Translations under genes and position numbers: made by a program
UHGV virus genome: UHGV-0336296
Direction: 5' to 3' (one strand)
DNA length: 12,662 nucleotides
From: a virus
Part shown: piece after piece, positions 1-12,662 of the stretch
Layout: every line of letters starts with the position of its first letter
How positions within the stretch are numbered: position 1 is the first letter of the stretch
The notes under the pieces: model-generated
The model's input: the letters and a program-made list of their open reading frames with translations, nothing else
Told to the model about the DNA's origin: nothing
Database searches by the model: none

Positions 1-692
1 TCGTTGAGCAGGTGCAGAAAATGTGGCGTACCGGGAAACGCCTTTATGGTAACGCCAGCGACCTGGTCACCATGATCAAAACGCTTTCCGGTGTCAGCCT
101 CGGCAGCGATCTGCAACCGCGCGGCGTCTGGAAAACGGACAGTAAAACCACCGCCACGGCGACGCATCAGCGTAACGAGGTTGCCAGTACCCTTCGTACG
201 ACCGCAATCAGCGAAGCGGCGTATGCCGTCACCCGATTGCCTGCGCCAACAACTTCCGCGGTGATGCAGAATGCCGCAGTGGGGCAGTCAACAACACCTG
301 CGCAGAGCACTGGCTGGCCTTCCGTCACGCATCCGGCACTGAACAATGCACCGGCGGTGAAAAACACGGTTGACCTGCCAACGTGGGAAGAACTGACTGA
401 CATTCGCGACACACTGAATACGGCAATTGATAAGGAGTTGTCCCGTACAACCAGTGATGCGCTGTTTCTGGCACTGCGCCGGGTGAAAGCAGATCTGAAT
501 GCGGATATCAACACGCGCCTTGAACAGTCTGCACGGATCATTCAGCGCACACCGGATGAGGTTTTACCCGCGCTGGTGCTGGCGGCGACCTGGTTTGATA
601 ACGCGGCGCGTGATGCGGACATTATCCGGCGTAATGCCATTACGCATCCCGGCTTTGTGCCGGTGATCCCTCTGAAGGTGCCAGTGCAATGA
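1..692 (+). CDS. Phage tail-associated protein, C-terminal part (Mu gpN / DNA circularization protein-like by position); 5' end lies outside the window
   Basis: Open frame runs in from the window edge with no upstream stop. Stop TGA at 690-692 overlaps the ATG of the next baseplate gene (ATGA). Assignment is by position upstream of the hub gene, not by recognised motifs. Confidence 0.4.
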   Translation, partial: VEQVQKMWRTGKRLYGNASDLVTMIKTLSGVSLGSDLQPRGVWKTDSKTTATATHQRNEVASTLRTTAISEAAYAVTRLPAPTTSAVMQNAAVGQSTTPAQSTGWPSVTHPALNNAPAVKNTVDLPTWEELTDIRDTLNTAIDKELSRTTSDALFLALRRVKADLNADINTRLEQSARIIQRTPDEVLPALVLAATWFDNAARDADIIRRNAITHPGFVPVIPLKVPVQ

Positions 693-1768
693 ACGACAAT
701 GTCACGCTACGGGTAAATGGCCGGGAGTGGAATGGCTGGACATCGGTGCGCATCGGTGCCGGTGTTGAACGACTGGCGCGGGATTTCAGTGTGGAGATCA
801 CCCGCCAGTGGCCGGGTGATGAGGGTATCACCACGCTTCAGCCGCGCATTAAAAACGGTTCAAAAGTGGAGGTGCTGATTGGTGATGAGCTGGTGATCAC
901 CGGCTGGGTGGAGGCGACGCCCGTTCGTTACGATGCCCGTTCGGTCAGCACCGGTATTGCCGGACGCAGTCTGACCGCTGACCTGATTGATTGTGCAGCT
1001 GAACCGACACAGTTTAACGGACGATCACTGGTACAGATTGCGCAGGCGCTTGCTGCGCCCTTCGGCATTGAGGTGGTGAACAGCGGTGCGCCGTCGGGTG
1101 TTATTCCTGATGTCCAGCCTGATCACGGTGAAACGGTGATCGAGGTGATTAACAAAATACTCGGTCAGCAGCAGGCGCTGGCTTATGACGACCCGCACGG
1201 CAGGCTGGTGATTGGCGGTATTGGCTCAACGCGGGCACATACCGCGCTGGTACTCGGGGAAAACATCCTTTCCTGCGATACGGAGAAGAGTATCCGGGAG
1301 CGGTTTTCTGTTTACCAGGTGGCGGGGCAGCGTGCCGGAAACGACGATGATTTCGGTGAGGCCACCACAACTGCGCTGCGGGCCCGCACAGAGGACGCAT
1401 TTATTGCCCGTTACCGTCCGATGTATATCAGGCAGACAGGGCAGGCTACGGGGGCAGGCTGTATTGCGCGTGCTGACTTTGAAGCCCGACAACGGGCGGC
1501 GCGGACGGATGAAACCACCTATGTGGTGCAGGGCTGGCGACAGGGTAACGGTACGCTGTGGCAGCCCAACCAGCGGGTGATTGTCTTCGATCCGGTCTGT
1601 GGTTTCGACAATACCGAACTGCTTGTCTCGGAAGTCACGTTTACTCAGGACCAGAATGGCACCCTGACGGAAATCCGTGTCGGCCCACCTGATGCTTATC
1701 TGCCTGAACCCGAAGCCCCCGGCGCGCGGAAAAAGAAAAAAGCCAGAGTACAGGAGGACCCGTTCTGA
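689..1768 (+). CDS. Baseplate hub protein, Mu gp44 (gene P)-like
   Basis: 359 aa ORF, first of a string of overlapping, translationally coupled genes. Size and order match the Mu/e14 baseplate module. High GC and codon-consistent. Confidence 0.5.
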   Translation: MNDNVTLRVNGREWNGWTSVRIGAGVERLARDFSVEITRQWPGDEGITTLQPRIKNGSKVEVLIGDELVITGWVEATPVRYDARSVSTGIAGRSLTADLIDCAAEPTQFNGRSLVQIAQALAAPFGIEVVNSGAPSGVIPDVQPDHGETVIEVINKILGQQQALAYDDPHGRLVIGGIGSTRAHTALVLGENILSCDTEKSIRERFSVYQVAGQRAGNDDDFGEATTTALRARTEDAFIARYRPMYIRQTGQATGAGCIARADFEARQRAARTDETTYVVQGWRQGNGTLWQPNQRVIVFDPVCGFDNTELLVSEVTFTQDQNGTLTEIRVGPPDAYLPEPEAPGARKKKKARVQEDPF

Positions 1769-2316
1769 TGAAGGCGATTGAAGCCATGCAGCGACAACTC
1801 CTCGGCCTGATTGGGCGGGCGGTGGTGAAAAGCATCAGTGCCGCCACGAAATGTCAGACCGTGGATGTGTCCCTGATTGCCGGTGAACCCAAAGCCGGGG
1901 TTGAACATCTTGAACCCTACGGTTTTACCGCAAGGGCAAACAGCGGTGCGGAAGCGGTGGTGTTGTTTCCGGATGGTGACCGTTCTCATGCGGTGGTTGT
2001 TACGGTGTCGGACCGGCGCTACCGCCTGAAAGGGCTGCAGACGGGTGAGGTGGCTGTCTATGACGATCAGGGGCAGTCCGTGACGCTGACCCGGGAGGGG
2101 ATCGTGGTGGACGGTGCAGGTAAAACGATCACGTTTCGCAATTCACCTAAAGCACGTTTTGAAATGGACCTGGAAGTGACAGGACAGGTGAAAGACCTGT
2201 GCGACTCCAGCGGCACCACCATGTCAGCGATGCGGCTTGCCTATAACGGGCATCGTCACAGAGAGAACGATCAGGGCAGTAACACCGACAAACCTGATAA
2301 AGCGATGGAGGCATGA
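1768..2316 (+). CDS. Baseplate central spike/assembly protein, Mu gp45-like (gpV family)
   Basis: 182 aa ORF. Start overlaps the previous stop (TGATG). Size and position match Mu gp45. Confidence 0.5.
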   Translation: MKAIEAMQRQLLGLIGRAVVKSISAATKCQTVDVSLIAGEPKAGVEHLEPYGFTARANSGAEAVVLFPDGDRSHAVVVTVSDRRYRLKGLQTGEVAVYDDQGQSVTLTREGIVVDGAGKTITFRNSPKARFEMDLEVTGQVKDLCDSSGTTMSAMRLAYNGHRHRENDQGSNTDKPDKAMEA

Positions 2317-2741
2317 TGGAACTGTGGCTGACGGTGAACGGTAAACGCACCTGCGCCAGCGCACCGCTGGATCCGCTGACCCGCGCCGTGGTGATTTCCC
2401 TGTTTACCTGGCGGCGGGCGGAGCCTGATGACAACGCCGACGTCCCGATGGGATGGTGGGGGGATACCTGGCCTGCGGTACAGAATGACCGTTACGGCTC
2501 CCGACTGTGGCTGCTTCAGCGCAGCAAACTGACCAATCAGCTGGTGCAGACGGTAAGGGGGTATATCCGCGAATGCCTGCAATGGATGATTGATGACGGC
2601 GTGGTGTCCCGTATTGATCTGGATATCCGCCGCACCGGGATTAATGAACTGGGTAACAGTATCACTCTCTGGCGTCGTGACGGACCGGTAATGATTTCTT
2701 TTGATGATCTGTGGAGTGCGATAACGCATGGCGGACAGTGA
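2313..2741 (+). CDS. Baseplate protein, Mu gp46-like
   Basis: 142 aa ORF with ATGA overlap to the previous gene. Mu gp46 is about 143 aa at the same position. Confidence 0.5.
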   Translation: MMELWLTVNGKRTCASAPLDPLTRAVVISLFTWRRAEPDDNADVPMGWWGDTWPAVQNDRYGSRLWLLQRSKLTNQLVQTVRGYIRECLQWMIDDGVVSRIDLDIRRTGINELGNSITLWRRDGPVMISFDDLWSAITHGGQ

Positions 2742-3786
2742 ATTTCAACGCCCGACGCTGGCAGAAAATATCAGTATGCTCCGTAACGATTTATTCGCCA
2801 GGCTGGACGTCAGCGACACGCTCCGGCGCATGGATGAAGACGTGCGGGCAAAGGTGTATGCGGCGGCGCTGCATACGGTTTACGGTTACATCGATTATCT
2901 GGCAATGAACATGCTGCCTGACCTGTGCGATGAGTCCTGGCTGGCGCGACATGCTGCGATGAAACGGTGTCCGCGCAAGGGGGCCACGGCTGCCAGCGGG
3001 TATATGCGCTGGGAAGGTGTCAGCGATGGCCTGAAGGTGACCGCCGGGAGTGTTATTCAGCGCGATGACCTGGTTCAGTACACGGCAACTGCCGATGCAA
3101 CCAGCTCCGGTGGTGTCCTGCGCGTGCCGATCGCCTGCTCAAGTGCAGGTGCGGTCGGTAACGCTGACGACGGTACGGCATTAATCCTGGTCACGCCGGT
3201 GAATGGTCTGCCGTCTTCCGGTGTGGCTGATACCCTTACAGGCGGATTTGATACTGAAGAGCTGGAAACGTGGCGCGCCCGCGTCATTGAGCGGTATTAC
3301 TGGACGCCGCAGGGCGGGGCTGACGGGGACTATGTCGTCTGGGCTAAAGAAGTGCCCGGCATTACCCGCGCATGGACATACCGTCACTGGATGGGAACGG
3401 GAACTGTCGGTGTGATGATTGCCAGCAGTGACCTGATTAATCCCATTCCGGAAGAATCAACGGAAACGGCGGCAAGACAACATATCGAGCCACTGGCCCC
3501 GGTGGCAGGCTCTGATTTGTATGTATTCAGGCCGGTGGCGCATACGGTGGATTTTCATATCCGCGTGATGCCGGACACACCGGAAATACGGGCTGCCATC
3601 ACCGCGGAGTTGCGTTCGTTTCTTCTGCGTGATGGTTATCCGCAGGGAGAACTGAAGGTATCGCGTATCAGTGAGGCGATTTCCGGTGCGAACGGGGAAT
3701 ATAGCCATCAGTTGCTTGCACCGGCAGACAATATCTCCATTGCGAAAAATGAACTGGCGGTTCTGGGGACGATTTCATGGACGTGA
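2728..3786 (+). CDS. Baseplate J-like protein, Mu gp47-like
   Basis: 352 aa ORF overlapping the previous gene by 14 nt. Size and position match baseplate J-family proteins of Mu-like and e14-like tails. Confidence 0.55.
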
Positions 3787-4361
3787 CAAACGATGATTAC
3801 ATCCGTCTGTTGTCGGCACTGTTGCCCCCCGGTCCGGCGTGGTCAGCCGGCGATCCGGCGATTGCCGGTGCGGCACCGTCATTAACCCGCGTTCATCAGC
3901 GTGCGGATGCCCTGATGCGGGAGCTGGATCCGCGCACAACCACCGAACTGATAAACCGCTGGGAGCGTCTGTGCGGCCTGCCGGATGAATGTATTCCGGC
4001 AGGGACGCAGACCCTTCGCCAGCGTCAGCAACGGCTGGATGCGAAGGTTAATCTGGCGGGCGGCATCAATGAGGATTTTTACCTTGCACAGCTTGCTGCC
4101 CTGGGCAGACCAGACGCCACCATCACGCGATACGACAAAAGCACGTTCACCTGCTCATCTGCCTGTACTGACGCGGTGAATGCGCCGGAATGGCGGTATT
4201 ACTGGCAGGTCAACATGCCAGCCGCCACCAACACCACCTGGATGACATGTGGCGATCCCTGTGATTCCGCACTGCGTATCTGGGGCGACACCGTAGTCGA
4301 GTGTGTGCTTAACAAACTCTGCCCGTCGCATACCTACGTAATTTTTAAATATCCGGAGTAA
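3777..4361 (+). CDS. Tail protein, Mu gp48 / YmfQ-like (DUF2313 family)
   Basis: 194 aa ORF overlapping the previous gene by 10 nt, directly upstream of the tail fibre gene as in e14 and Mu. Confidence 0.5.
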
Positions 4362-4364
4362 TCC

Positions 4365-5150
4365 ATGCATCGTATAGACACGAAAACCGCGCAGAAGGAT
4401 AAGTTCGGCGCGGGTAAGAACGGTTTTACCCGTGGTAACCCCCAGACCGGCACGCCTGCCACCGATCTGGATGATGACTACTTTGACATGTTGCAGGAGG
4501 AGCTTTGCAGCGTTGTGGAGGCATCCGGTGCCAGCCTGGAGAAGGGGCGGCATGACCAGCTGCTTACCGCGCTTCGTGCGCTGCTGTTAAGCCGCAAGAA
4601 TCCGTTTGGCGATATCAAATCGGATGGCACGGTGAAAACAGCTCTCGAAAACCTTGGTTTGGGAGAAGGTTCGGCATTACCCGTTGGCGTGCCTGTTCCG
4701 TGGCCTTCCGCCACTCCGCCAACAGGCTGGCTGAAATGCAACGGGGCGGCTTTTTCTGCTGAAGAATACCCGGAACTGGCAAAGGTTTACCCGACAAATA
4801 AATTGCCTGATTTACGCGGTGAGTTTATTCGTGGCTGGGATGATGGAAGAGGGATTGATACTAACCGTAGCTTGCTTTCGTCACAGGGAGATACCATTCG
4901 GAATATAACAGGATTTATAAATGAAGTTAAAGGCACCATTGATACAGCAACTTTCAGGTTACAGACTGGTACTGGTGCTTTTGCCTTAGCATCTCAAGCT
5001 ACGCGAAATATCTATAATAACCTAGGCACATATGAAACAAAAAATACCCCTTACACAGGATTCAGTTTTGATGCATCCAGGGTTGTACCAACAGCATCAG
5101 AGAATCGCCCTCGAAACATTGCATTTAACTATATCGTGAGAGCAGCATAA
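4365..5150 (+). CDS. Side tail fibre protein: constant N-terminal part (to about 4653) fused to an invertible C-terminal receptor-binding cassette
   Basis: 261 aa. GGAG RBS upstream. Contains a tail-collar-like motif ([21 protein letters not shown]). The left crossover site lies inside the coding sequence at 4642-4667. GC drops sharply after about 4860. Confidence 0.75.
4642..4667. repeat. Left invertase crossover site (hix/gix/pix-like, 26 bp)
   Basis: ctctcgaaaacc-tt-ggtttgggagaa: AAACC-NN-GGTTT core with dyad symmetry, as in Hin/Gin/Cin/Pin recombination sites. Confidence 0.7.
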
Positions 5151-5752
5151 TGGATAAAGCAATATTAAATAGTGAGCTTATTGCTACAAAGTCGGGGGAT
5201 ATTACCGTTTATAACTATGATAGTGAGACGCAGGAATATATTTCAGCATCAACTGAATATCTTGCCATTGGTGTCGGTATTCCTGCATATTCCTGTTTAG
5301 ATGCCCCTGGCACACATAAGGCGGGTTATGCTATCTGTCGTTCTGCAAATTTTAACTCATGGGAATATGTGCCAGACCATCGCGGTGAAATCGTCTATAG
5401 CACCAAAACGGGAGAGTCAAAAGAAATCACAGCTCCGGGTGATTACCCTGATAATACAACCACTATCGCCCCGTTAACGCCATACGATAAATGGGATGGT
5501 GAGAAATGGGTGACGGATACCGAAGCACAGCATAGCGCCGCAGTAGATGCAGCAGAAGCACAGCGCCAGTCACTGATTGATACTGCAATGGCTTCAATCA
5601 GTCTGATTCAGCTGAAATTGCAGGCCGGACGTAAACTGACGCAGGCAGAAACAACCAGCCTTAACGCTGTGCTGGATTACATTGACGCGGTGACGGCAAC
5701 TGATACCAGCACCGCGCCTGATGTCATCTGGCCTGAACTGCCGGAGGCGTAG
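5150..5752 (+). CDS. Tail fibre assembly protein (Tfa)
   Basis: 200 aa. Start overlaps the fibre stop (TAATG). C-terminus LDYIDAVTATDTSTAPDVIWPELP is the conserved Tfa C-terminal signature, shared with the opposite-strand copy. Confidence 0.75.
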   Translation: MDKAILNSELIATKSGDITVYNYDSETQEYISASTEYLAIGVGIPAYSCLDAPGTHKAGYAICRSANFNSWEYVPDHRGEIVYSTKTGESKEITAPGDYPDNTTTIAPLTPYDKWDGEKWVTDTEAQHSAAVDAAEAQRQSLIDTAMASISLIQLKLQAGRKLTQAETTSLNAVLDYIDAVTATDTSTAPDVIWPELPEA

Positions 5753-6167
5753 GCCATTCAATATCTGGCGCACCGGAAGTATCGACCAGCTCCAGTGCGT
5801 CCAGATAATCCAGCCATAAATTATATTGTTCCAGCTCGTCACCTTTCAGACGACCAATAGCAGCTTTGCCAGGCCACTGATGGGTATTGATGTAGGTATT
5901 GACTTCTGAAACCAAAGATATTTTTTTCATTTCAGCCGCCAGCACCTCATCCTCTTTTGAAGGCGGCGGGGAATTAATCCATATTGGCCGTCCTGAACTG
6001 TCAGCGCCAATTTCTTTCCCTTCTGGATGCAGCCCAAGAAATTGCTCATATGTTTCTCTGGTAATTTCAATAACATCATCAGGAAGCGTTCCCGCATCCT
6101 CATATTCTGGAAACAATTCTTGCAGATAAAAACTTTTACTTCCGGGTGAAAAGAATACTGAGTTCAT
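5724..6167 (-). CDS. Alternative tail fibre assembly protein (Tfa'), silent cassette in this orientation
   Basis: 147 aa on the - strand, converging on tfa and overlapping it by 29 bp. C-terminus WLDYLDALELVDTSGAPDIEWPTPP matches the Tfa signature. Confidence 0.7.
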   Translation of the reverse strand: MNSVFFSPGSKSFYLQELFPEYEDAGTLPDDVIEITRETYEQFLGLHPEGKEIGADSSGRPIWINSPPPSKEDEVLAAEMKKISLVSEVNTYINTHQWPGKAAIGRLKGDELEQYNLWLDYLDALELVDTSGAPDIEWPTPPAVQAR

Positions 6168-6169
6168 TC

Positions 6170-6624
6170 TTACCGTCCAATGATTAACGCTGAGACGCTG
6201 GTATCTGAAGGAAAGGCTGCATTCAGTGGTTTGTCGACTTTGAACACAATCGTATTATTCCCCCTGACAGCGGCAAAAGAACAAACCGCCGTCGCGTATG
6301 AACCTGTAATATTACTGGATACACCACCATAAGCTGTTGTTGATACCAGAGGGATAACGCCCAGCACCTTATTAGGAAATACAAAGGGCAATGTGGCTGT
6401 GGCAATATAAGACTTATTAGAACCTGTAATGGCATAAGCATTATCAGTCATTCCATTCATCGCCACTGGACCGCTTATACTTACAGTAACCATCTGAATG
6501 ATTAGCCCGTCAGGTTGACGAATCACAAAATTTCCATTGCCACCAGTAACCGTCCAGAAAGACATATCAGGGATTTGGTTTTCCCCGTTGCCCACATTCC
6601 GTTTTGCCGCTTCTCCCAAACCAA
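6170..6624 (-). CDS. Alternative tail fibre C-terminal cassette (Stf'), no start of its own; expressed only after inversion fuses it to the constant N-terminus
   Basis: - strand frame is open from the right crossover site to a stop at 6170-6172, 2 nt upstream of the tfa' start. The sequence at the crossover encodes GLGE in both the expressed and the silent cassette. Confidence 0.65.
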
Positions 6625-6636
6625 CGTTTATGAAAA
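6611..6636. repeat. Right invertase crossover site (26 bp), inverted relative to the left site
   Basis: ttctcccaaacc-aa-cgtttatgaaaa. The inner half is the exact reverse complement of the inner half of the left site. Central AA is complementary to the left site's TT. Lies about 55 bp upstream of the invertase start. Confidence 0.7.
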
Positions 6637-6690
6637 TACAGAAATAACGAGCAAATGGCATCATTCCTGCTTTTGTCAGGGAGATCTACC

Positions 6691-7242
6691 ATGCTTATTG
6701 GCTATGTACGTGTGTCAACAAATGACCAGAACACAGATCTACAACGTAATGCGCTGAACTGTGCAGGATGTGAGCTGATTTTTGAAGACAAGATAAGCGG
6801 TACAAAGTCCGACAGACCAGGACTGAAAAAGCTGCTCAGGACATTATCGGCAGGTGACACGCTGGTGGTCTGGAAACTGGATCGACTCGGTCGCAGCATG
6901 CGGCATCTTGTCGTTTTGGTGGAGGAGCTTCGGGAAAAGGGTATTAACTTTCGCAGCCTGACCGACAGCATAGATACGTCTTCACCAATGGGACGCTTTT
7001 TCTTCCATGTCATGGGCGCACTTGCCGAAATGGAAAGGGAGCTGATAGTCGAACGTACCAGGGCGGGATTGGCTGCGGCTCGTGAAGAAGGGCGAATAGG
7101 TGGGCGTCGATCAAAGCTAACTGATGAACAGTGGGCGCAGGCAGGAAGGTTGGTTGCAGCAGGTGAATCACGACAGCGTGTGGCATTAATTTACGATGTT
7201 GGGATATCGACGCTATATAAAAAATTTCCGGCAACCAGGTAA
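6691..7242 (+). CDS. pin: Site-specific DNA invertase, serine recombinase of the Pin/Hin/Gin/Cin family
   Basis: 184 aa from the ATG at 6691. N-terminus MLIGYVRVSTNDQ carries the catalytic serine motif. C-terminal helix-turn-helix (GISTLYKKF). Adjacent to the invertible fibre segment. Confidence 0.9.
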   Translation: MLIGYVRVSTNDQNTDLQRNALNCAGCELIFEDKISGTKSDRPGLKKLLRTLSAGDTLVVWKLDRLGRSMRHLVVLVEELREKGINFRSLTDSIDTSSPMGRFFFHVMGALAEMERELIVERTRAGLAAAREEGRIGGRRSKLTDEQWAQAGRLVAAGESRQRVALIYDVGISTLYKKFPATR

Positions 7243-7330: not shown

Positions 7331-7349
7331 TTAATTGACGGTGATTATG

Positions 7350-7769
7350 ATGCAGTTTTTCACTCCCTCCGGGTTGCGTGCAGTGCAGCCGCTTCCACTC
7401 TATGGCGATCTTGTACCCTGTGGTTTCCCAAGCCCTGCTCAGGACTACGTTGAACAGCGTATCGATCTTAACGAGCTACTGATACAACACCCCAGCGCCA
7501 CGTACTTCGTTAAGGCATCTGGTGACTCGATGATTGATGCCGGGATCGGCGAAGGCGATTTACTGGTAGTGGACAGTTCACGCAAGGCAGAGCACGGCGA
7601 TATCGTTATTGCTGCGGTGGACGGGGAATTTACCGTTAAGCGCCTACAGTTATGGCCAACTGTCCAGCTTAACCCTGAAAACCGCGCCTGGTCGCCTATC
7701 ATCATCGGGAGCGAAGAAACGCTCGATGTTTTTGGTGTGGTGACGTTCATCGTGAAATCGACGGGTTGA
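7350..7769 (+). CDS. umuD: Translesion DNA polymerase V accessory subunit UmuD (LexA-like self-cleaving S24 peptidase)
   Basis: 139 aa from the ATG at 7350. Cys-Gly cleavage site (LVPCGFPSP), Ser nucleophile motif (ASGDSMID), and Lys in FTVKRL. Sits directly behind the SOS box. Confidence 0.85.
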
Positions 7770-7771
7770 TC

Positions 7772-9040
7772 ATGTACGCGTTGTGTGATGTGAACTCGTT
7801 CTATGCCTCCTGTGAAACTGTATTTCGCCCGGATCTCAAAGGTAGGCCGGTTGTGGTGCTTTCCAACAATGACGGTTGTGTTATTGCCCGCAGCACAGAG
7901 GCAAAGAAACTGGGTATCAAAATGGGTGAGCCGTACTTCAGGCAGAAGGACTTTTTCCGGCGCCATGGGGTGGTGTGCTTCAGCAGCAACTATGAGCTGT
8001 ATGCGGATATGTCTAACCGGGTGATGACCACGCTGGAAGAAATGTCGCCGCGCTGTGAAATTTACTCGATAGACGAGGCATTTTGTGACCTCACTGGTGT
8101 ACGTAACTGTCGTGATCTGACTGATTTTGGCCGTGAAATCCGTGCTACTGTTCTGCAGCGAACGCATCTGACAGTGGGTGTTGGCATTGCCCAGACCAAG
8201 ACGCTGGCCAAGCTGGCCAACCACGCGGCCAAACAATGGCAGCGGCAGACGGGCGGGGTGGTAGACCTGTCCAGTGTCGATCGCCAGCGCAAACTGATGG
8301 CCGCGCTGCCGGTTGATGAAGTCAGGGGCATCGGTCGGCGTATTTCGAAAAAACTGGAGGCGATGGGGATCAAGACCGTACTGCAACTCGCTGATACGGA
8401 CATCCGTTTTATCCGTAAACATTTTAATGTCGTGCTGGAGCGAACGGTGCGTGAGTTACGCGGAGAACCCTGCCTGGCACTGGAAGAATTCGCGCCAGTG
8501 AAACAGGAAATTATCTGTTCCCGCTCTTTTAGCGGTCGTATCACGGAGTATGAAGAGATGCGCCAGGCGATCTGCAGCTATGCCTCGCGGGCGGCAGAGA
8601 AACTGCGTGGCGAGCACCAGTATTGCCGTTTTATCTCGGCGTTTGTGAAGACCAGCCCGTTCGCACTGAACGAGCCCTATTATGGCAATAATGCCTCCGT
8701 GAAGCTTCTGACGCCTACGCAGGACAGTCGGGATATCATCAGTGCAGCCATCCGCTGTCTGGACGCCATATGGCAAGACGGATATCGGTATCAGAAAGCC
8801 GGGGTGATGTTGGGTGATTTCTTCAGTCAGGGCGTGGCCCAGCTCAACTTGTTCGATGATAACGCGCCGCGCCCGGGCAGTGAGAAACTGATGGAAGTGC
8901 TGGATCACCTCAATGCCAAAGGCGGGAGGGGGACGCTGTATTTTGCAGGACAGGGTATCCAGCAGCAGTGGCAGATGAAACGGGAAATGCTTTCTCCACG
9001 TTACACCACCCGATTCTCTGATCTACCCGTTGTCAGGTGA
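7772..9040 (+). CDS. umuC: Translesion DNA polymerase V catalytic subunit UmuC (Y-family polymerase)
   Basis: 422 aa from the ATG at 7772. N-terminus [13 protein letters not shown] and [11 protein letters not shown] are Y-family catalytic motifs. Starts 2 nt after the umuD stop. Confidence 0.9.
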
Positions 9041-9117
9041 TTTTCCGGTGACAGATTCTTCGGAAAACGGTGGATGAGTTTATTAGAAACGATAAATCAA
9101 ATGTTCTTATTTTTGAT

Positions 9118-9156
9118 TACTAAGTCTCAGTTATACAATTCGGCTGAGACTTAGTA
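9118..9156. repeat. 13 bp perfect inverted repeat (stem-loop, 13 nt spacer) between the convergent umuC and KAP NTPase genes
   Basis: tactaagtctcag (9118-9130) and ctgagacttagta (9144-9156) are exact reverse complements. Located at the GC-content break. No clear U-tract on either side. Confidence 0.55.
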
Positions 9157-9163
9157 TGCCAAT

Positions 9164-10912
9164 TTATAGGCAAGAAATTGCGTGTCTTACTGTATTGTTT
9201 AAATCATATATCGCGCCATATTTAAAACTTTCTTGCTTACCTATGAAATAAATGTCAAGTTTTTGATTGAGGTATATAAGGCGCTGCTTTTCATTTGTGG
9301 CAAACTGAGATATGTTACTAATTCTATAATTACTTCTTAAAAAAGCGTTGAATTGCTCTATATCTTTAATGCTCCATTCTTTTAAAATGCACTTGGTCAA
9401 AAATGGTGCGCCAAGTACTTCTAGCGTTTTATAGTTTCCCATGGGATCTAATTTGAGTAATAAGTTAACATCAAATAAAGCCCAACCATCAGTTTCAATA
9501 ATTTCCTTAATTGCCTTTAAGTTTTTTCTCTTTTCAATATTATTATGACGGCCTGATAATATTGAAAATATAAGTTTCCCATCATCAAAGCCACTAGTCC
9601 AACTACTGATTGGATTGTTGTTATGAAATTCAAAGTAAGTAATAATGTCCTCGTCACTAAATTCGAGTGATTTAGAACTCATGAACTGCAATGTTAGTAA
9701 TGATGATTTTGGAAGATATTTATGATAAGTCAAATATTCATAGTTCTGAACCGCCCTAAGCCATTGGTGCAAATCACATGGTATTGTTCTAGAAATTAAA
9801 CCAATAATCGTGGGGAAAAATTCTTTTTCATCTGTCTCCTGTAGTTCTGGTCGAGTTGAAACTGCAATATCAATTGTACTTAAAGGTGTTGGCACATAAA
9901 AAACATCGTCCAATATATCATAAAGAGAAACATGACCACTGTAGTAATTTTTAAGGTGAATATTAATTTTATAATTGTGTAATGTAGACAAAAGTCTCGG
10001 TTCATGTGGATTTTCATCGCTGCTGGAATTTTGGGGTGGGATATGCTGGATGCTGTCAATGATCAGTTCGTCCATGGATTTGTTATGGATAAATAACAAG
10101 ATAAAATATGACAAAATTGAGCTTAGTATGGTTTTAGAGGCGATTTTCCACTCTAGTTCAGGGTGGTTTTCTGCGTGTAAATATAATGGAAGTGCAGTAT
10201 TTAAACACCTCATTAAAATTCTTATGTTAACTATGTTATGGTATGATATTATTTCTTCGAAAATCATTTTGTCTTCAGTGGGGAAGTACTGTAGTTTTTC
10301 TTCAATTATTCTCATATCTAATATGTCGCGAGGGTTTGGGTTGTAATGAAGTGAATCAGAAATAATTTTTTCTTTATGTTCTAATGACAGGTGGGATTCG
10401 GCAGATGTATTAGATATAACAATAAAATCCAAACTAGAGATTTTTGAGGTTGAATATAACGAATGACAATAAGTTAGTATTTCATTGGCCAGTGAGGGAG
10501 TGCTTAATCGCTCAATGTCATCTAATATAAATATGCCACTGAGTTTGGAGAGTATGTTCTCTCTTACACTTGAACCAATGGAACTGAACACACCATTAAG
10601 CACATTGGCACTAGCGGGAGAACCACTGCTTACACTACCCAAACCAGAAATAGTATCTAACCCAGACTTAAGAGTGTCTATATCTTGAAGATAGTAGCAG
10701 TCAATAATCTTTGCTTTGAAATCTGCAAGAGACTTAACGCCTAGTAATGAAATATAATAAAACACATTAAGATCATAAAAACGAGGAAATACATTTTTAA
10801 TAAAAAAAGTTTTACCTGTTCCCCATTTTCCATCAATAAAAATAAGTCCATCTCTTTCGGATTGTAGAAGATGAACTATTTTTACAATCAAATTGCTATT
10901 AGAGTTTTCCAT
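9164..10912 (-). CDS. KAP-family P-loop NTPase (PifA-like); candidate abortive infection / anti-phage protein
   Basis: 582 aa. Walker A GKWGTGKT (the GxWGxGK[ST] form typical of KAP NTPases) near the N-terminus. Walker B-like IFILDDIERL (hhhhDD-DR). Very AT-rich single-gene insert between GC-rich neighbours. Confidence 0.7.
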   Translation of the reverse strand: MENSNSNLIVKIVHLLQSERDGLIFIDGKWGTGKTFFIKNVFPRFYDLNVFYYISLLGVKSLADFKAKIIDCYYLQDIDTLKSGLDTISGLGSVSSGSPASANVLNGVFSSIGSSVRENILSKLSGIFILDDIERLSTPSLANEILTYCHSLYSTSKISSLDFIVISNTSAESHLSLEHKEKIISDSLHYNPNPRDILDMRIIEEKLQYFPTEDKMIFEEIISYHNIVNIRILMRCLNTALPLYLHAENHPELEWKIASKTILSSILSYFILLFIHNKSMDELIIDSIQHIPPQNSSSDENPHEPRLLSTLHNYKINIHLKNYYSGHVSLYDILDDVFYVPTPLSTIDIAVSTRPELQETDEKEFFPTIIGLISRTIPCDLHQWLRAVQNYEYLTYHKYLPKSSLLTLQFMSSKSLEFSDEDIITYFEFHNNNPISSWTSGFDDGKLIFSILSGRHNNIEKRKNLKAIKEIIETDGWALFDVNLLLKLDPMGNYKTLEVLGAPFLTKCILKEWSIKDIEQFNAFLRSNYRISNISQFATNEKQRLIYLNQKLDIYFIGKQESFKYGAIYDLNNTVRHAISCL

Positions 10913-10989
10913 TATAATTGTTATCCTAATTTAAAGAGGTGTAAATAAAGCATGAAATAGTATAATGCTAATTTGAGGTAAAAACATTA

Positions 10990-11580
10990 TTATTCAATTG
11001 AAACAATAAGATATTCACCTTGATTTTTCGCATTACCCATCGCTCGCGTAACTGCATGCCAGATAAACTTGTCAGCTTGCACGGCACCGTAGTCGGTAAT
11101 CGCTTCTGCTTCCTTGCCTCGGCGTCTTGGCGCATCCCATTCCCGGGCTGCCTCCGGTGACAATACAAGTGGCTGTCGGTCGTGTATATCAACCAAGCCT
11201 TCATCGGCCGCAGACGTCACTATTAAAAAACCTTCGGCCTCGTCACTACGTTCGAAGGGGCGCTGCCGATTGCCGCCATGAATATTGGCTACCCATCAGT
11301 TCGGTGAATGAAGTAGGGTTGTTTTTTTGCTATCTTCGGTCTTGTCGAGTAGGGCACCGAAGTTACCTTCAACGCCCCCTCTAAGAACCGTGCGTGAGAG
11401 TTTCCAGCTCACACGGCTCAAGCCTTATCAAACACCACTGTGAAATGATGCGGCAGGTGCAGTCAGACGCGTGGTTCGGGATCGGATATAATCTGTCCAA
11501 TCCGTGTCATATGGATTAAGTGCAGATGCGACGAGTCTGTGACGGACAATTTTGACGCTCTGAGCGTGAACCAGCCTCAG
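10990..11580 (-). pseudogene. Decayed yedK-like SRAP (SOS response-associated peptidase, DUF159) gene
   Basis: C-terminal frame reads LVDIHDRQPLVLSPEAAREW...NAKNQGE, matching the SRAP C-terminal region. Upstream sequence continues the match (PIFMAAIGS, PFERSDEAEGFLIV) only across a 1-nt frameshift and an in-frame TAG. No intact ORF longer than 78 aa. N-terminal boundary is uncertain. Confidence 0.55.
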
Positions 11581-11631
11581 TATTGTAACTTTCCCCGTAT
11601 CAGTGTCCCGATAAAGACCTGACACCCCATT

Positions 11632-12465
11632 TTACTGCTGCCACCAAGCATATAGATCTAGACCTTTGGTAATTACACCTAAGAAAATCCCTAAAACTAT
11701 TAATCCAGTCACTAATGGGTGTTCTTTGAGCCTCATCGTTAACCAATATGGATGCCAGCTTCTTGGCCAAAACCATTTATTGTTAGTTTTGAGAGTACGA
11801 TCATGAATCCGCTCAGCAATATTACAGAGTATGTCGACCTTTCGTAATGTAGACATTTCTAGCTCTCTATACTTACCTTTGACATATGCCTCGGCTTCCT
11901 CAGCGCCGGCTAAGACATCTTTATCAGCGATACCATTTTTTTCAACAAGAGCTAACATTCTACCTGCACGGCCACTTTTGGCGGTATGCCCAATATAGCT
12001 TCGTCCATATATAGAAACGGCAGCTCTCGCTAAATCGAGTTTTCTGTCATCAGTAAGTATAAAGGGCTCGCCACCTAGGACTGAAAATCTATGCTGTAAG
12101 GCCTGAAATCCGTAATTGTTATCTCGCATGTTCCAATGCAGAAATGTGCATTGTGCGTATCTTTTCAGGAATGTAAAGTAGTTATCTAATAGATGATGCT
12201 CAAGGATATCGAGATTTTTTTCATCTGAAACATCAAGACCTAATAATTCTGCGGATCTATTAAGAGCCCAATGATCTGTTTGCCCACTGCCTAAATTTCT
12301 GACAGCAATAGAGGTGATCCTTGTGGATTTACCGCCCACAGCATCATAAAAAGATTCACATGAATAATGGACAACGTAGCATTGATGCGCATTTGCAAAA
12401 CATTTTTCGATAAAACCAATGTACTCGCTGCGATCTCTAATCTGTTGTTTGATGGAAGATGACAT
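11632..12465 (-). CDS. Hypothetical protein with a C-terminal transmembrane anchor; function unknown
   Basis: 277 aa. ATG at 12465 preceded by a GAGGT RBS. C-terminal hydrophobic helix LVTGLIVLGIFLGVITKGL. AT-rich compared with the phage and umuDC parts. No family recognised. Confidence 0.6.
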   Translation of the reverse strand: MSSSIKQQIRDRSEYIGFIEKCFANAHQCYVVHYSCESFYDAVGGKSTRITSIAVRNLGSGQTDHWALNRSAELLGLDVSDEKNLDILEHHLLDNYFTFLKRYAQCTFLHWNMRDNNYGFQALQHRFSVLGGEPFILTDDRKLDLARAAVSIYGRSYIGHTAKSGRAGRMLALVEKNGIADKDVLAGAEEAEAYVKGKYRELEMSTLRKVDILCNIAERIHDRTLKTNNKWFWPRSWHPYWLTMRLKEHPLVTGLIVLGIFLGVITKGLDLYAWWQQ

Positions 12466-12637: not shown

Positions 12638-12662
12638 TGGTGGAGCTGGCGGGAGTTGAACC
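12638..12662 (-). ncRNA. ssrA: 3' terminal fragment of tmRNA (ssrA) tRNA-like domain, or a duplicated att copy of it; gene body would lie beyond the window end
   Basis: - strand reads GGTTCAACTCCCGCC-AGCTCC-A-CCA: T-loop TTCAACT, T-stem CCCGC, acceptor 3' strand CAGCTCC, discriminator A, CCA. This matches the tmRNA 3' end as recalled. Only 25 nt are visible. Confidence 0.55.

What the first reader, a model, noticed from the sequence alone, without database searches (positions are those of the whole stretch)
4642..6636. Pin-driven invertible tail-fibre host-range switch with both crossover sites resolved
The two 26 bp sites have the AAACC-NN-GGTTT core and sit in inverted orientation about 1.97 kb apart, with a 15 bp perfect inverted repeat. 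Inversion would swap the fibre C-terminus and its Tfa chaperone for the silent Stf'/Tfa' cassette. The crossover falls within the codons for GLGE, so both fusions stay in frame. The general mechanism is known (Mu G segment, P1 C segment, e14 P region), but these cassettes and their receptor specificities are likely uncharacterised.
Basis: partly seen in the sequence, partly recalled or inferred. Interest (0 to 1): 0.55.

Follow-up and report, generated by a model that had tools for sequence, protein, structure and literature searches.

The report
e14-type invertible phage tail-fibre switch
This is a correctly spotted but already well-known switch: an E. coli prophage flips a 2 kb DNA segment with the Pin enzyme to swap the tip of its tail fibre. 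Its flip sites are letter-for-letter those of the classic e14 "P segment" of E. coli K-12.

Summary
Two 26-bp sites lie in inverted orientation at 4642-4667 and 6611-6636. They share a 15-bp perfect inverted repeat, and no such site is expected by chance. One detail needs correcting: the outer half of the right site reads CGTTT, not GGTTT.

Both sites are identical to the crossover sites of the e14 P segment of E. coli K-12. The adjacent recombinase is 90.6% identical to PinE. The layout is collinear with the Mu G segment and gin, including the same 67.5-bp distance from site to invertase start.

An in-silico flip gives an in-frame 247-aa fibre, and that protein exists in public assemblies. 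The same prophage (flanks 99.98-100% identical) occurs in both orientations in different isolates. Two near-isogenic E. coli genomes differ over 16.9 kb only by this exact inversion.

The expressed cassette is an StfE-type collar tip with a TfaE-like chaperone. The silent cassette is a gp53/R-pyocin-like tip with a TfaP-like chaperone. Neither tip has a close counterpart among deposited phage genomes, so their receptors are unknown.

The host prophage is SfV-like and integrated at ssrA. The mechanism and the family are textbook, so novelty and interest are low.

The parts
4365..4653 (+). Constant 5' part of the tail-fibre gene (codons 1-96), kept in both orientations. It follows the YmfQ/Mu gp48-like baseplate gene (3777-4361).
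   Evidence: The first 105 residues of the window fibre are 97.1% identical to the same stretch of K-12 StfP. Residues 37-105 match the N-terminus of Mu fibre protein S weakly (5YVQ, E 0.034). ORF list.
4642..4667 (.). Left 26-bp crossover site (pixL), CTCTCGAAAACC-TT-GGTTTGGGAGAA. The central TT is at 4654-4655.
   Evidence: Identical to K-12 e14 L001 9779-9804.
4654..6624 (.). Invertible segment (about 1.97 kb) between the two central dinucleotides.
   Evidence: Found inverted in the same prophage in L015: window 4649-6629 aligns on the opposite strand at 99.9% identity. The homologous 1935-bp block is exactly inverted between strains Cn5 and IrN.
4654..5150 (+). Expressed variable fibre C-terminus, StfE-type: a phage tail collar domain plus a divergent distal tip.
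   Evidence: Pfam Collar PF07484, E 6e-15. 57% identical to K-12 StfE', with conserved ends and a different middle. PDB hits to the phiTE short tail fibre 9CUY (E 1.7e-29) and T4 gp37 2XGF (E 4.7e-15).
5150..5752 (+). Tail-fibre assembly chaperone of the expressed cassette (TfaE-like, 200 aa).
   Evidence: Pfam Caudo_TAP, E 1.8e-32. 91.5% identical to K-12 TfaE.
5724..6167 (-). Tail-fibre assembly chaperone of the silent cassette (TfaP-like, 147 aa). It converges on the other tfa gene and overlaps it by 29 bp.
   Evidence: Pfam Caudo_TAP, E 1.5e-27. 56% identical to K-12 TfaP.
6170..6625 (-). Silent variable fibre C-terminus (Stf'), a gp53/R-pyocin-like receptor-binding tip. It is fused to the constant part after inversion.
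   Evidence: Pfam Gp53-like_C, E 5e-5 (24.2 bits, just under the 24.9 cut-off). A low-confidence AF2 model (pLDDT 58.8) has as its two best PDB fold matches the R1 pyocin fibre 6CL5 and AP22 gp53 4MTM, both about E 6e-4. The fused 247-aa protein exists in public assemblies.
6611..6636 (.). Right 26-bp crossover site (pixR), TTCTCCCAAACC-AA-CGTTTATGAAAA. The central AA is at 6623-6624.
   Evidence: Identical to K-12 e14 L001 11606-11631. Aligns without gaps to Mu gixR.
6626..6664 (-). Short extension of the silent reading frame past the crossover site to an ATG (MMPFARYFCIFIN...). It lies in the pixR-pin intergenic region. Gene callers report the resulting 163/164-aa ORF as a 'hypothetical protein'.
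   Evidence: ORF 6170-6664. RefSeq and other gene calls of 163 aa in homologues. The same leader recurs in many database proteins. It corresponds to the 'stfE' leader of StfE2 in PMC12529663.
6691..7242 (+). pin: a DNA invertase (small serine recombinase, 183 aa, catalytic Ser9).
   Evidence: Pfam Resolvase E 3.6e-51 plus HTH_7. 90.6% identical to K-12 PinE. Gin structures 3UJ3 and 4M6F, E about 1e-93, over residues 1-183.
6712..6775 (+). Putative recombinational enhancer inside the 5' end of pin. Two Fis-like G-N13-C cores lie at 6712-6726 and 6761-6775, about 48-49 bp apart, with the proximal one about 96 bp from the centre of pixR.
   Evidence: Scan and alignment with pinE and Mu gin. The position fits the native Hin geometry of about 100 bp from hixL to the proximal Fis site (PMC3798978). 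Excess synonymous conservation is modest and not significant. Inferred, not demonstrated.

Best explanation
This is a working copy of the e14-type P segment, a Din-family (Gin/Hin/Cin/Pin) DNA-inversion switch. It sits at the end of the tail operon of an SfV-like, Mu-tailed E. coli prophage integrated at ssrA.

Proposed mechanism. Pin dimers bind the two 26-bp sites. With Fis bound to an enhancer in the 5' end of pin (inferred), they form an invertasome, cut at the central TT dinucleotides and rotate. This inverts the ~1.97-kb segment.

Consequence. The tail operon reads in from the left, and the first 96 codons of the fibre gene lie outside the segment. Each orientation therefore joins that constant, baseplate-binding part to one of two unrelated receptor-binding C-termini and co-expresses the matching Tfa chaperone:
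- as sequenced: a collar/T4 gp37-like tip (261-aa fibre) plus a TfaE-like chaperone;
- flipped: a gp53/R-pyocin-like tip (247-aa fibre) plus a TfaP-like chaperone.

A lysogen population should thus release virions of two adsorption specificities.

Shown here: the sites, the reading frames, an intact invertase, and both orientations in nature.
Inferred: Fis dependence, the promoter arrangement, and the host-range effect of each tip.
For: Sites and chance expectation.

Identity to e14: both 26-bp sites are identical to the K-12 e14 P-segment sites. Their core is the repeat TTGGTTTGGGAGAAGG at which e14 inversion was mapped experimentally (PMC12529663). Both orientations of e14 also coexist in culture (PMC4272514).

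Positive control: the same regular expression recovers the Mu gix sites exactly at the annotated G-segment boundaries. The distance from site centre to invertase start is 67.5 bp in both Mu and the window.

Invertase: intact, with Ser9.

Frames: in-frame fusion in both states. The 247-aa flipped fusion exists at 100% identity in public assemblies, and the look-up index lists it in 146 blocks of the collection.

Both orientations: L004 and L005 (window orientation) versus L015 (inverted) are the same prophage at 99.9-100% identity. Cn5 versus IrN is an exact inversion with identical flanks. Among complete E. coli genomes, 31 match at 80% coverage or more in the window orientation and 17 in the flipped one.

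Viable lineage: the tail module is 97.5-98% identical to SfV, SfII, SfIV, SfI and phage SKA5. SKA5, an isolated phage, carries the same invertible arrangement with an invertase.
Against: No read-level data were available for the source strain, so switching within this culture is not shown. Only different isolates were compared.

The enhancer is supported by position and homology alone. Synonymous conservation in codons 8-29 is 0.73 against 0.57 in the rest of the gene across seven invertase genes. For the window-Mu pair alone, Fisher p = 0.21.

The consensus scan found no promoter for pin.

No receptor has been tested for either tip, and the model of the silent tip is of low confidence (pLDDT 58.8).

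Whether the prophage as a whole is inducible was not examined.
Confidence: 0.9

Rival explanations
1. The switch mainly serves the host as an anti-phage device. In the orientation sequenced here, the pin-proximal ORF (6170-6664, minus strand) has its own ATG. It would encode a free 164-aa protein: an MMPFARYFCIFIN leader followed by the gp53-like tip. This is the analogue of StfE2 of K-12 e14, which was reported to block adsorption of T2 and other phages by masking outer-membrane receptors. Inversion would then turn this protein on and off.
For: PMC12529663 reports that the inverted e14 P segment yields StfE2 (stfE leader plus gp53-like StfP tip), and that plasmid-produced StfE2 cuts T2 adsorption.

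The window is in the equivalent 'inverted' state, with the gp53-like tip next to pin.

The ATG-containing leader recurs in many silent-cassette ORFs in the databases.
Against: The leader lies in the conserved intergenic and regulatory DNA between pixR and pin, which is also conserved in Mu. Its conservation therefore needs no coding explanation.

The only Shine-Dalgarno-like AGGA sits 0-3 nt from the two ATGs, which is poor spacing (read from the sequence).

No promoter-like site was found reading leftwards into it.

The gp53-like tip here has no detectable BLASTP similarity to the K-12 StfP tip, so any receptor-masking specificity would differ.

A trimeric fibre tip without its shaft or matching Tfa expression may not fold.

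The prophage keeps a complete Mu-like tail module, for which host-range switching is the straightforward role.

The two roles are not mutually exclusive.
Confidence: 0.1
2. The segment is a frozen relic. The repeats and cassettes survive, but inversion no longer happens in this strain, for example because Pin, the enhancer or expression is defective. The opposite orientations seen in other isolates would then reflect old events.
For: Decayed versions do exist among relatives. L013 has Pin with Ser9 changed to Leu and a broken segment. L016 and L021 lack pin. L009 and L010 lack an adjacent pin.
Against: Pin here is full length and has Ser9; its first 60 residues differ from K-12 PinE only at residue 41 and match Mu Gin at most positions.

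Both sites are identical to the functional e14 sites.

All four cassette ORFs are intact.

The inverted copy in L015 differs by only 2 nt in 1981, with flanks 99.98-100% identical, so the flip is very recent.
Confidence: 0.04
3. The orientation differences between genomes come from assembly errors across the inverted repeat, or from RecA-dependent recombination, rather than from Pin.
For: Short-read assemblers can mis-orient segments flanked by inverted repeats. L004 and L015 come from automated Logan assemblies.
Against: The repeat is only 15-20 bp, far shorter than sequencing reads, so it should not confuse an assembler. It is also too short to be an efficient RecA substrate.

The same exact inversion is seen between complete, closed genomes (Cn5/IrN; 31 versus 17 complete genomes).

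The breakpoints always fall inside the 26-bp invertase sites.

Inversion of the identical e14 sites depends on Pin proteins experimentally (PMC12529663).
Confidence: 0.02

Closest known systems
P segment / PinE of cryptic prophage e14, E. coli K-12 (Plasterk & van de Putte 1985; Kutsukake et al. 1985; PMC4272514; PMC12529663)
   Same: Both 26-bp crossover sites are identical. The gene order is the same: ymfQ - stf(constant) | stf-var tfa / tfa' stf-var' | pin. The first 105 fibre residues, which include the constant part, are 97% identical. PinE is 90.6% and TfaE 91.5% identical. The same two tip classes are present, collar-type and gp53-like.
   Different: The segment is 1.97 kb here against 1.80 kb in K-12. 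The distal part of the collar-type tip differs (57% overall). The gp53-like tip is not detectably similar by BLASTP, and Tfa' is only 56% identical to TfaP. The orientation as sequenced corresponds to the K-12 'inverted' state. The host element is a prophage with an intact tail module integrated at ssrA, not the decayed e14 at icd. The cargo after pin is umuDC-like genes plus a KAP NTPase, not mcrA.
G segment / Gin of phage Mu
   Same: The baseplate genes upstream are Mu-like (gp44-gp48). The layout is collinear: Sc | Sv U / U' Sv' | invertase. The 26-bp sites match gix at 17-18 of 26 positions, and the distance from site centre to invertase start is the same 67.5 bp. The Gin structure matches Pin at E 1.9e-93. 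The gin enhancer region aligns with the 5' end of pin.
   Different: The Mu G segment is about 3 kb. The constant part of Mu S is about 170 codons and its fibres are about 500 aa, against 96 codons and 247-261 aa here. The fibre tips and Tfa proteins are not the Mu ones; only a weak N-terminal match to S was found.
Hin/hix/Fis-enhancer system of Salmonella, and Cin/cix of phage P1 (other Din-family invertases)
   Same: The same recombinase family, the same type of 26-bp imperfect palindromic site, and the expected geometry of about 100 bp from site to proximal Fis site (PMC3798978).
   Different: Hin flips a promoter rather than swapping coding C-termini. P1 Cin and Hin sequences were not compared here; this part of the comparison rests on general knowledge.
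SfV-like temperate myoviruses (SfV, SfII, SfIV, SfI; Escherichia phage SKA5)
   Same: The tail and baseplate module 1-4650 is 97.5-98% identical. SKA5 carries an invertible stf/tfa pair with a DNA invertase at the same place.
   Different: SfV has a single fixed fibre plus Tfa, followed by the gtr O-antigen genes and no invertase. The SKA5 invertase is a more distant paralogue (187 aa, MIYGYVRVSTNHQ...).

Membership tests
Din-family (Gin/Hin/Cin/Pin) DNA inversion system | A small serine recombinase (about 180-190 aa) with an N-terminal catalytic domain bearing the nucleophilic Ser9/10, and a C-terminal helix-turn-helix | tested here: met
   Pfam Resolvase (E 3.6e-51) plus HTH_7 (E 1e-12). The N-terminus MLIGYVRVS places Ser at position 9. 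Full-length match to Gin structures 3UJ3 and 4M6F, E about 1e-93.
Din-family (Gin/Hin/Cin/Pin) DNA inversion system | Two 26-bp imperfectly palindromic crossover sites in inverted orientation, with identical non-palindromic central dinucleotides | tested here: met
   Sites at 4642-4667 and 6611-6636. The central dinucleotides are TT and AA on the + strand, i.e. TT in both sites once read in inverted orientation. Half-sites are CTCTCGAAAACC, TTCTCCCAAACC (twice) and TTTTCATAAACG. Zero sites are expected by chance. The same regular expression recovers the Mu gix sites at the annotated G boundaries.
Din-family (Gin/Hin/Cin/Pin) DNA inversion system | A cis-acting, Fis-bound recombinational enhancer (two Fis sites about 48 bp apart) in the 5' part of the invertase gene, about 100 bp from the nearer crossover site | tested here: inconclusive
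   G-N13-C cores at 6712-6726 and 6761-6775 are 48-49 bp apart, and the proximal one is about 96 bp from the centre of pixR. The region aligns closely with Mu gin, and the geometry fits PMC3798978. Excess synonymous conservation is small (0.73 against 0.57) and not significant for a single pair (p = 0.21). No binding data are available.
Din-family (Gin/Hin/Cin/Pin) DNA inversion system | The segment is actually found in both orientations, with breakpoints inside the sites | tested here: met
   Same prophage: L004 and L005 versus L015. Near-isogenic strains Cn5 and IrN differ by an exact 1935-bp inversion with identical flanks. 31 versus 17 complete E. coli genomes. Within-culture switching of this strain cannot be tested with these tools.
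Invertible tail-fibre host-range cassettes (Mu G, P1 C, e14 P type) | The crossover lies inside the fibre gene, so a constant N-terminus is fused in frame to alternative C-termini, each followed by its own Tfa/U chaperone, in convergent cassettes | tested here: met
   The 261-aa fibre as sequenced and the 247-aa fibre after the in-silico flip are both open. There are two Caudo_TAP genes, one per cassette. The flipped fusion exists as a real annotated protein.
Invertible tail-fibre host-range cassettes (Mu G, P1 C, e14 P type) | The two orientations give virions with different adsorption specificity | not testable with these tools
   This is inferred only from the two unrelated tip types: collar/gp37-like and gp53/R-pyocin-like.
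e14 P segment specifically | pix site sequences, the StfP constant region, a PinE orthologue and the ymfQ neighbour | tested here: met
   Sites identical. First 105 fibre residues 97% and Pin 90.6% identical to the K-12 proteins. A YmfQ/Mu gp48 gene lies directly upstream. The chromosomal location (ssrA, not icd) and the tip alleles differ.

The most novel reading that the evidence does not exclude
The switch may have two jobs. Besides swapping the virion fibre tip, the orientation sequenced here places a gp53-like receptor-binding domain behind a conserved ATG-bearing leader next to pin (6170-6664, minus strand). If that ORF is expressed in the lysogen, it would be a new allele of the StfE2-type 'receptor-masking' protein reported for K-12 e14. 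Each of the many silent-cassette alleles in E. coli prophages would then be a different, invertase-switched superinfection-exclusion factor.
Probability: 0.1. Interest if true: 0.5.

Novelty: already known. Interest (0 to 1): 0.1.

Why it matters
As a mechanism it adds nothing new: this is the e14/Mu/P1 paradigm, with sites identical to e14.

It has modest practical value in three respects.
1. It gives a clean natural example of the same prophage in both orientations.
2. It shows that the 15-bp (L/V)GLGE-coding repeat is also the module boundary at which unrelated fibre tips and shafts are exchanged between phages.
3. It flags two receptor-binding alleles that are common in E. coli prophages but absent from cultured phages. 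These could be mined for engineering phage or tailocin host range.

It also shows that the 'hypothetical protein' calls next to pin genes are silent fibre cassettes.

Tried and rejected
Complete E. coli genomes. I looked for the exact element there. The best whole-window matches (H76, H77; 98.4-98.8% identical over 84-85% of the window) have the same backbone but different or decayed cassettes. They therefore could not serve as orientation controls.

Structure of the silent tip. The homologous-protein hits gave no sequence diversity in the tip (97-99% identical). An alignment of distant representatives gave only a low-confidence model (pLDDT 58.8). Its two top fold matches agree with the Pfam hint, but I treat them as weak support only.

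PDB sequence searches. Neither Tfa protein gave a meaningful hit: none for the TfaE-like protein, and one spurious hit at E 0.008 for Tfa'. The flipped fibre gave only a weak hit to the Mu S N-terminus.

Promoter and terminator scan. It gave background-level counts and no pin promoter.

Enhancer test by synonymous-site conservation. It showed a modest trend that was not significant. A first run was also distorted by a mis-registered sequence, L013.

Literature. The classic papers (Plasterk & van de Putte 1985; Mehta et al. 2004; Johnson 2015 review) are not held in the library. They are cited from reference lists and general knowledge only.

Rejected readings:
- A chance inverted repeat is ruled out.
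- A multi-site shufflon (Min/p15B type) is ruled out because only two sites exist in the window.
Full report
WHAT IS IN THE SEQUENCE

The window carries the end of a phage tail operon on the + strand, with homologues of Mu gp43 to gp48. The last of these is a YmfQ/Mu gp48-like gene at 3777-4361. After it come the following genes:
- a 261-aa fibre gene (4365-5150) with a phage tail collar domain;
- a 200-aa Caudo_TAP chaperone (5150-5752);
- on the minus strand, a 147-aa Caudo_TAP chaperone (5724-6167);
- on the minus strand, an ORF (6170-6664) with a near-threshold Gp53-like_C match;
- on the + strand, a 183-aa Resolvase + HTH_7 protein (6691-7242).

The repeat finder's top inverted pair is 4649-4668 / 6610-6629, 20 nt with one mismatch. 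Read directly, the sites are CTCTCGAAAACC-TT-GGTTTGGGAGAA (4642-4667) and TTCTCCCAAACC-AA-CGTTTATGAAAA (6611-6636). They share a 15-bp perfect inverted repeat, TTGGTTTGGGAGAAG. A degenerate site pattern with up to three mismatches finds only these two places, and none in 200 shuffles.

Two details of the finding need correcting. First, the outer half of the right site is CGTTT, not GGTTT. Second, the central dinucleotide lies in codon 97 (Leu, or Val in the silent copy), just before GLGE; the repeat as a whole encodes (L/V)GLGE. Inverting 4654-6624 in silico gives an open 247-aa fibre reading ...ENLGLGEAAKRN....

IS IT REALLY AN INVERSION SWITCH?

Four lines of evidence say yes.

1. The recombinase is intact. 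Its N-terminus MLIGYVRVS carries Ser9. It is 90.6% identical to K-12 PinE and matches the Gin crystal structures over its full length at E about 1e-93.

2. Both 26-bp sites are identical to the two sites flanking the P segment of prophage e14 in E. coli K-12. Inversion has been mapped to that same repeat experimentally and depends on Pin proteins (PMC12529663). It also occurs spontaneously in culture (PMC4272514).

3. The layout is collinear with Mu. The same regular expression recovers the Mu gix sites exactly at the annotated G-segment boundaries. The distance from site centre to invertase start is 67.5 bp in both.

4. Both orientations exist in nature.
- The exact 261-aa fibre occurs in contigs L004 and L005, which match the whole window at 99.98-99.99% identity in the same orientation.
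- L015 matches the flanks at 99.98-100% and has 4649-6629 on the opposite strand at 99.9%.
- The 247-aa flipped fusion is a real annotated protein at 100% identity, and the look-up index lists it in 146 blocks of the collection.
- In the homologous element (91% identical to the window) of two near-isogenic complete genomes, Cn5 and IrN, a 16.9-kb locus is identical except for an exact 1935-bp inversion bounded by the 15-bp repeat.
- Across complete E. coli genomes, 31 match the window orientation and 17 the flipped one at 80% coverage or more.

HOW IT MOST LIKELY WORKS

Shown here: the sites, the reading frames, the intact enzyme and the two natural states.

Inferred from the family: Pin dimers at the two sites synapse on a Fis-bound enhancer, cut at the central TT and exchange strands, which flips the segment.

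A candidate enhancer lies where the family predicts. Two G-N13-C cores at 6712-6726 and 6761-6775 are about 48-49 bp apart, and the proximal one is about 96 bp from the centre of pixR. The stretch aligns closely with Mu gin. This matches the native Hin geometry of about 100 bp (PMC3798978). Extra synonymous conservation there is small (0.73 against 0.57 over seven genes) and not significant for the window-Mu pair (p = 0.21). I therefore rate the enhancer as inconclusive.

The first 96 codons of the fibre gene and the operon promoter lie outside the segment. Each state therefore expresses one fibre tip together with its own chaperone.

THE TWO CASSETTES

The expressed tip is StfE-type. Its collar region and C-terminal motif (...[16 protein letters not shown]) are shared with K-12 StfE', but the middle of the domain is different, giving 57% identity overall. 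TfaE is 91.5% identical. Solved relatives are the phiTE short tail fibre and the T4 gp37 tip.

The silent tip is gp53-like. Pfam gives E 5e-5, just below the cut-off. A low-confidence AF2 model (pLDDT 58.8) has the R1 pyocin fibre 6CL5 and AP22 gp53 4MTM as its two best fold matches. It has no BLASTP similarity to the gp53-like tip of K-12 StfP, and its chaperone is 56% identical to TfaP.

In a library of 1.84 billion representative proteins, only 93 match the silent tip. Most of them match only its first 50 or so residues.

Among 50,697 deposited phage genomes, the best match to the active variable region is 70% identical. The best match to the silent tip is 35% identical over 68% of its length.

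The sequenced orientation corresponds to what the K-12 literature calls the 'inverted' state.

CONTEXT

The tail module (1-4650) is 97.5-98% identical to the Shigella serotype-converting myoviruses SfV, SfII, SfIV and SfI, and to Escherichia phage SKA5. SKA5 is an isolated phage with the same invertible arrangement. SfV has a single fixed fibre.

The last 25 nt of the window are the 3' end of ssrA, so the prophage sits at the tmRNA gene and pin lies near its right end. G+C falls from about 57-60% in the baseplate genes to about 40-46% in the cassette tips, which fits mosaic acquisition.

RIVAL READINGS

The most interesting rival comes from Kirigo et al. 2025 (PMC12529663). They propose that the pin-proximal ORF created by inversion in K-12 ('StfE2': a short leader plus the gp53-like tip) blocks T2 adsorption.

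The window has the equivalent ORF (6170-6664, MMPFARYFCIFIN-VGLGE-gp53-like), and the leader recurs widely in database proteins. Several points count against this reading:
- the leader lies in conserved pixR-pin intergenic DNA, which is also conserved in Mu;
- its Shine-Dalgarno spacing is poor;
- no leftward promoter was detected;
- the tip differs from the K-12 one.

I give this about 0.1 as a real additional function. A frozen relic, or an assembly or RecA artefact, is unlikely given the intact parts, the near-identity of the two states, and breakpoints that always fall inside the sites.

COMPARISON AND VERDICT

The element works like, and is a member of, the Din-family invertible tail-fibre switches. 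More precisely, it is the e14 P-segment type, with identical sites, an orthologous Pin, the same constant fibre part and the same neighbours. It sits in an intact-tailed SfV-like prophage and carries different tip alleles.

The novelty is essentially nil apart from the uncharacterised receptor-binding alleles. Interest is 0.1.

Noticed in passing
window 7335-12465: Between pin and the ssrA attachment end lies a cargo block. It holds a umuD-like S24 peptidase (7335-7769) and a Y-family polymerase (7766-9040). On the minus strand it has a 582-aa KAP-type P-loop NTPase (9164-10912) of only 31-35% G+C, whose best PADLOC match is the candidate defence family PDC-S49 (E 7.8e-14). An SRAP pseudogene remnant follows (about 10990-11220), and then a 277-aa protein (11632-12465) with no Pfam or PADLOC match.
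   Followed up: partly
L001, L002, L006, L009-L011, L016-L021 (downstream of pin): The slot just after pin is a variable cargo hotspot in related prophages. It holds McrA in K-12 e14, a LEM-3-like GIY-YIG protein, a DpnII-type restriction enzyme, GmrSD, DUF4145 with a reverse transcriptase, a SIR2-domain gene, or DinI with the integrase.
   Followed up: no
L013 6303-6848; L016 and L021; L009 and L010: Decayed versions of the switch exist. In strain CP55_Sichuan, Pin has Leu in place of the catalytic Ser9 and the fibre gene is a pseudogene. Other prophages have lost pin, or lack an adjacent copy, so their segment is presumably locked.
   Followed up: partly
window 6626-6664 (minus strand); proteins P0128-P0130, P0135, P0138, P0153, P0177, P0191: Silent fibre cassettes are routinely called as stand-alone 'hypothetical proteins', because the frame stays open past the crossover site to an ATG in the site-to-invertase spacer. 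The leader is MPFARYFCIFIN..., with related MPAR... leaders in other systems. Mu's annotated S' ORF also overruns the G boundary.
   Followed up: partly
window 4644-4668; proteins P0115-P0123: Homology to other phages (HK97 stf, P2-like phages, phage 500465-1) starts within a few bases of the crossover site. The same silent tip is also found on fibres with quite different N-terminal shafts (172, 313 and 353 aa, and a different constant region ending in the same NLGLGE). The site-coding motif therefore doubles as a module boundary for horizontal exchange of fibre tips.
   Followed up: partly
window 12638-12662: The window ends in the 3' end of the tmRNA gene ssrA, which marks the prophage attachment end. 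Close relatives of the same tail module sit at other loci, next to paoD or icd.
   Followed up: partly
L012 and L013 compared with the window: Prophages with a 98-99% identical backbone and the same umuDC/KAP cargo carry entirely different or degraded cassettes inside the invertible segment. This shows rapid cassette turnover relative to the rest of the phage.
   Followed up: no
NZ_CP182220.1 (strain CD45), about 1,216,000 and 4,309,000: One genome carries two copies of this type of switch, one in each orientation (hits H10 and H58). Pin proteins could act on them in trans, as reported for PinQ, PinR and PinE on e14.
   Followed up: no
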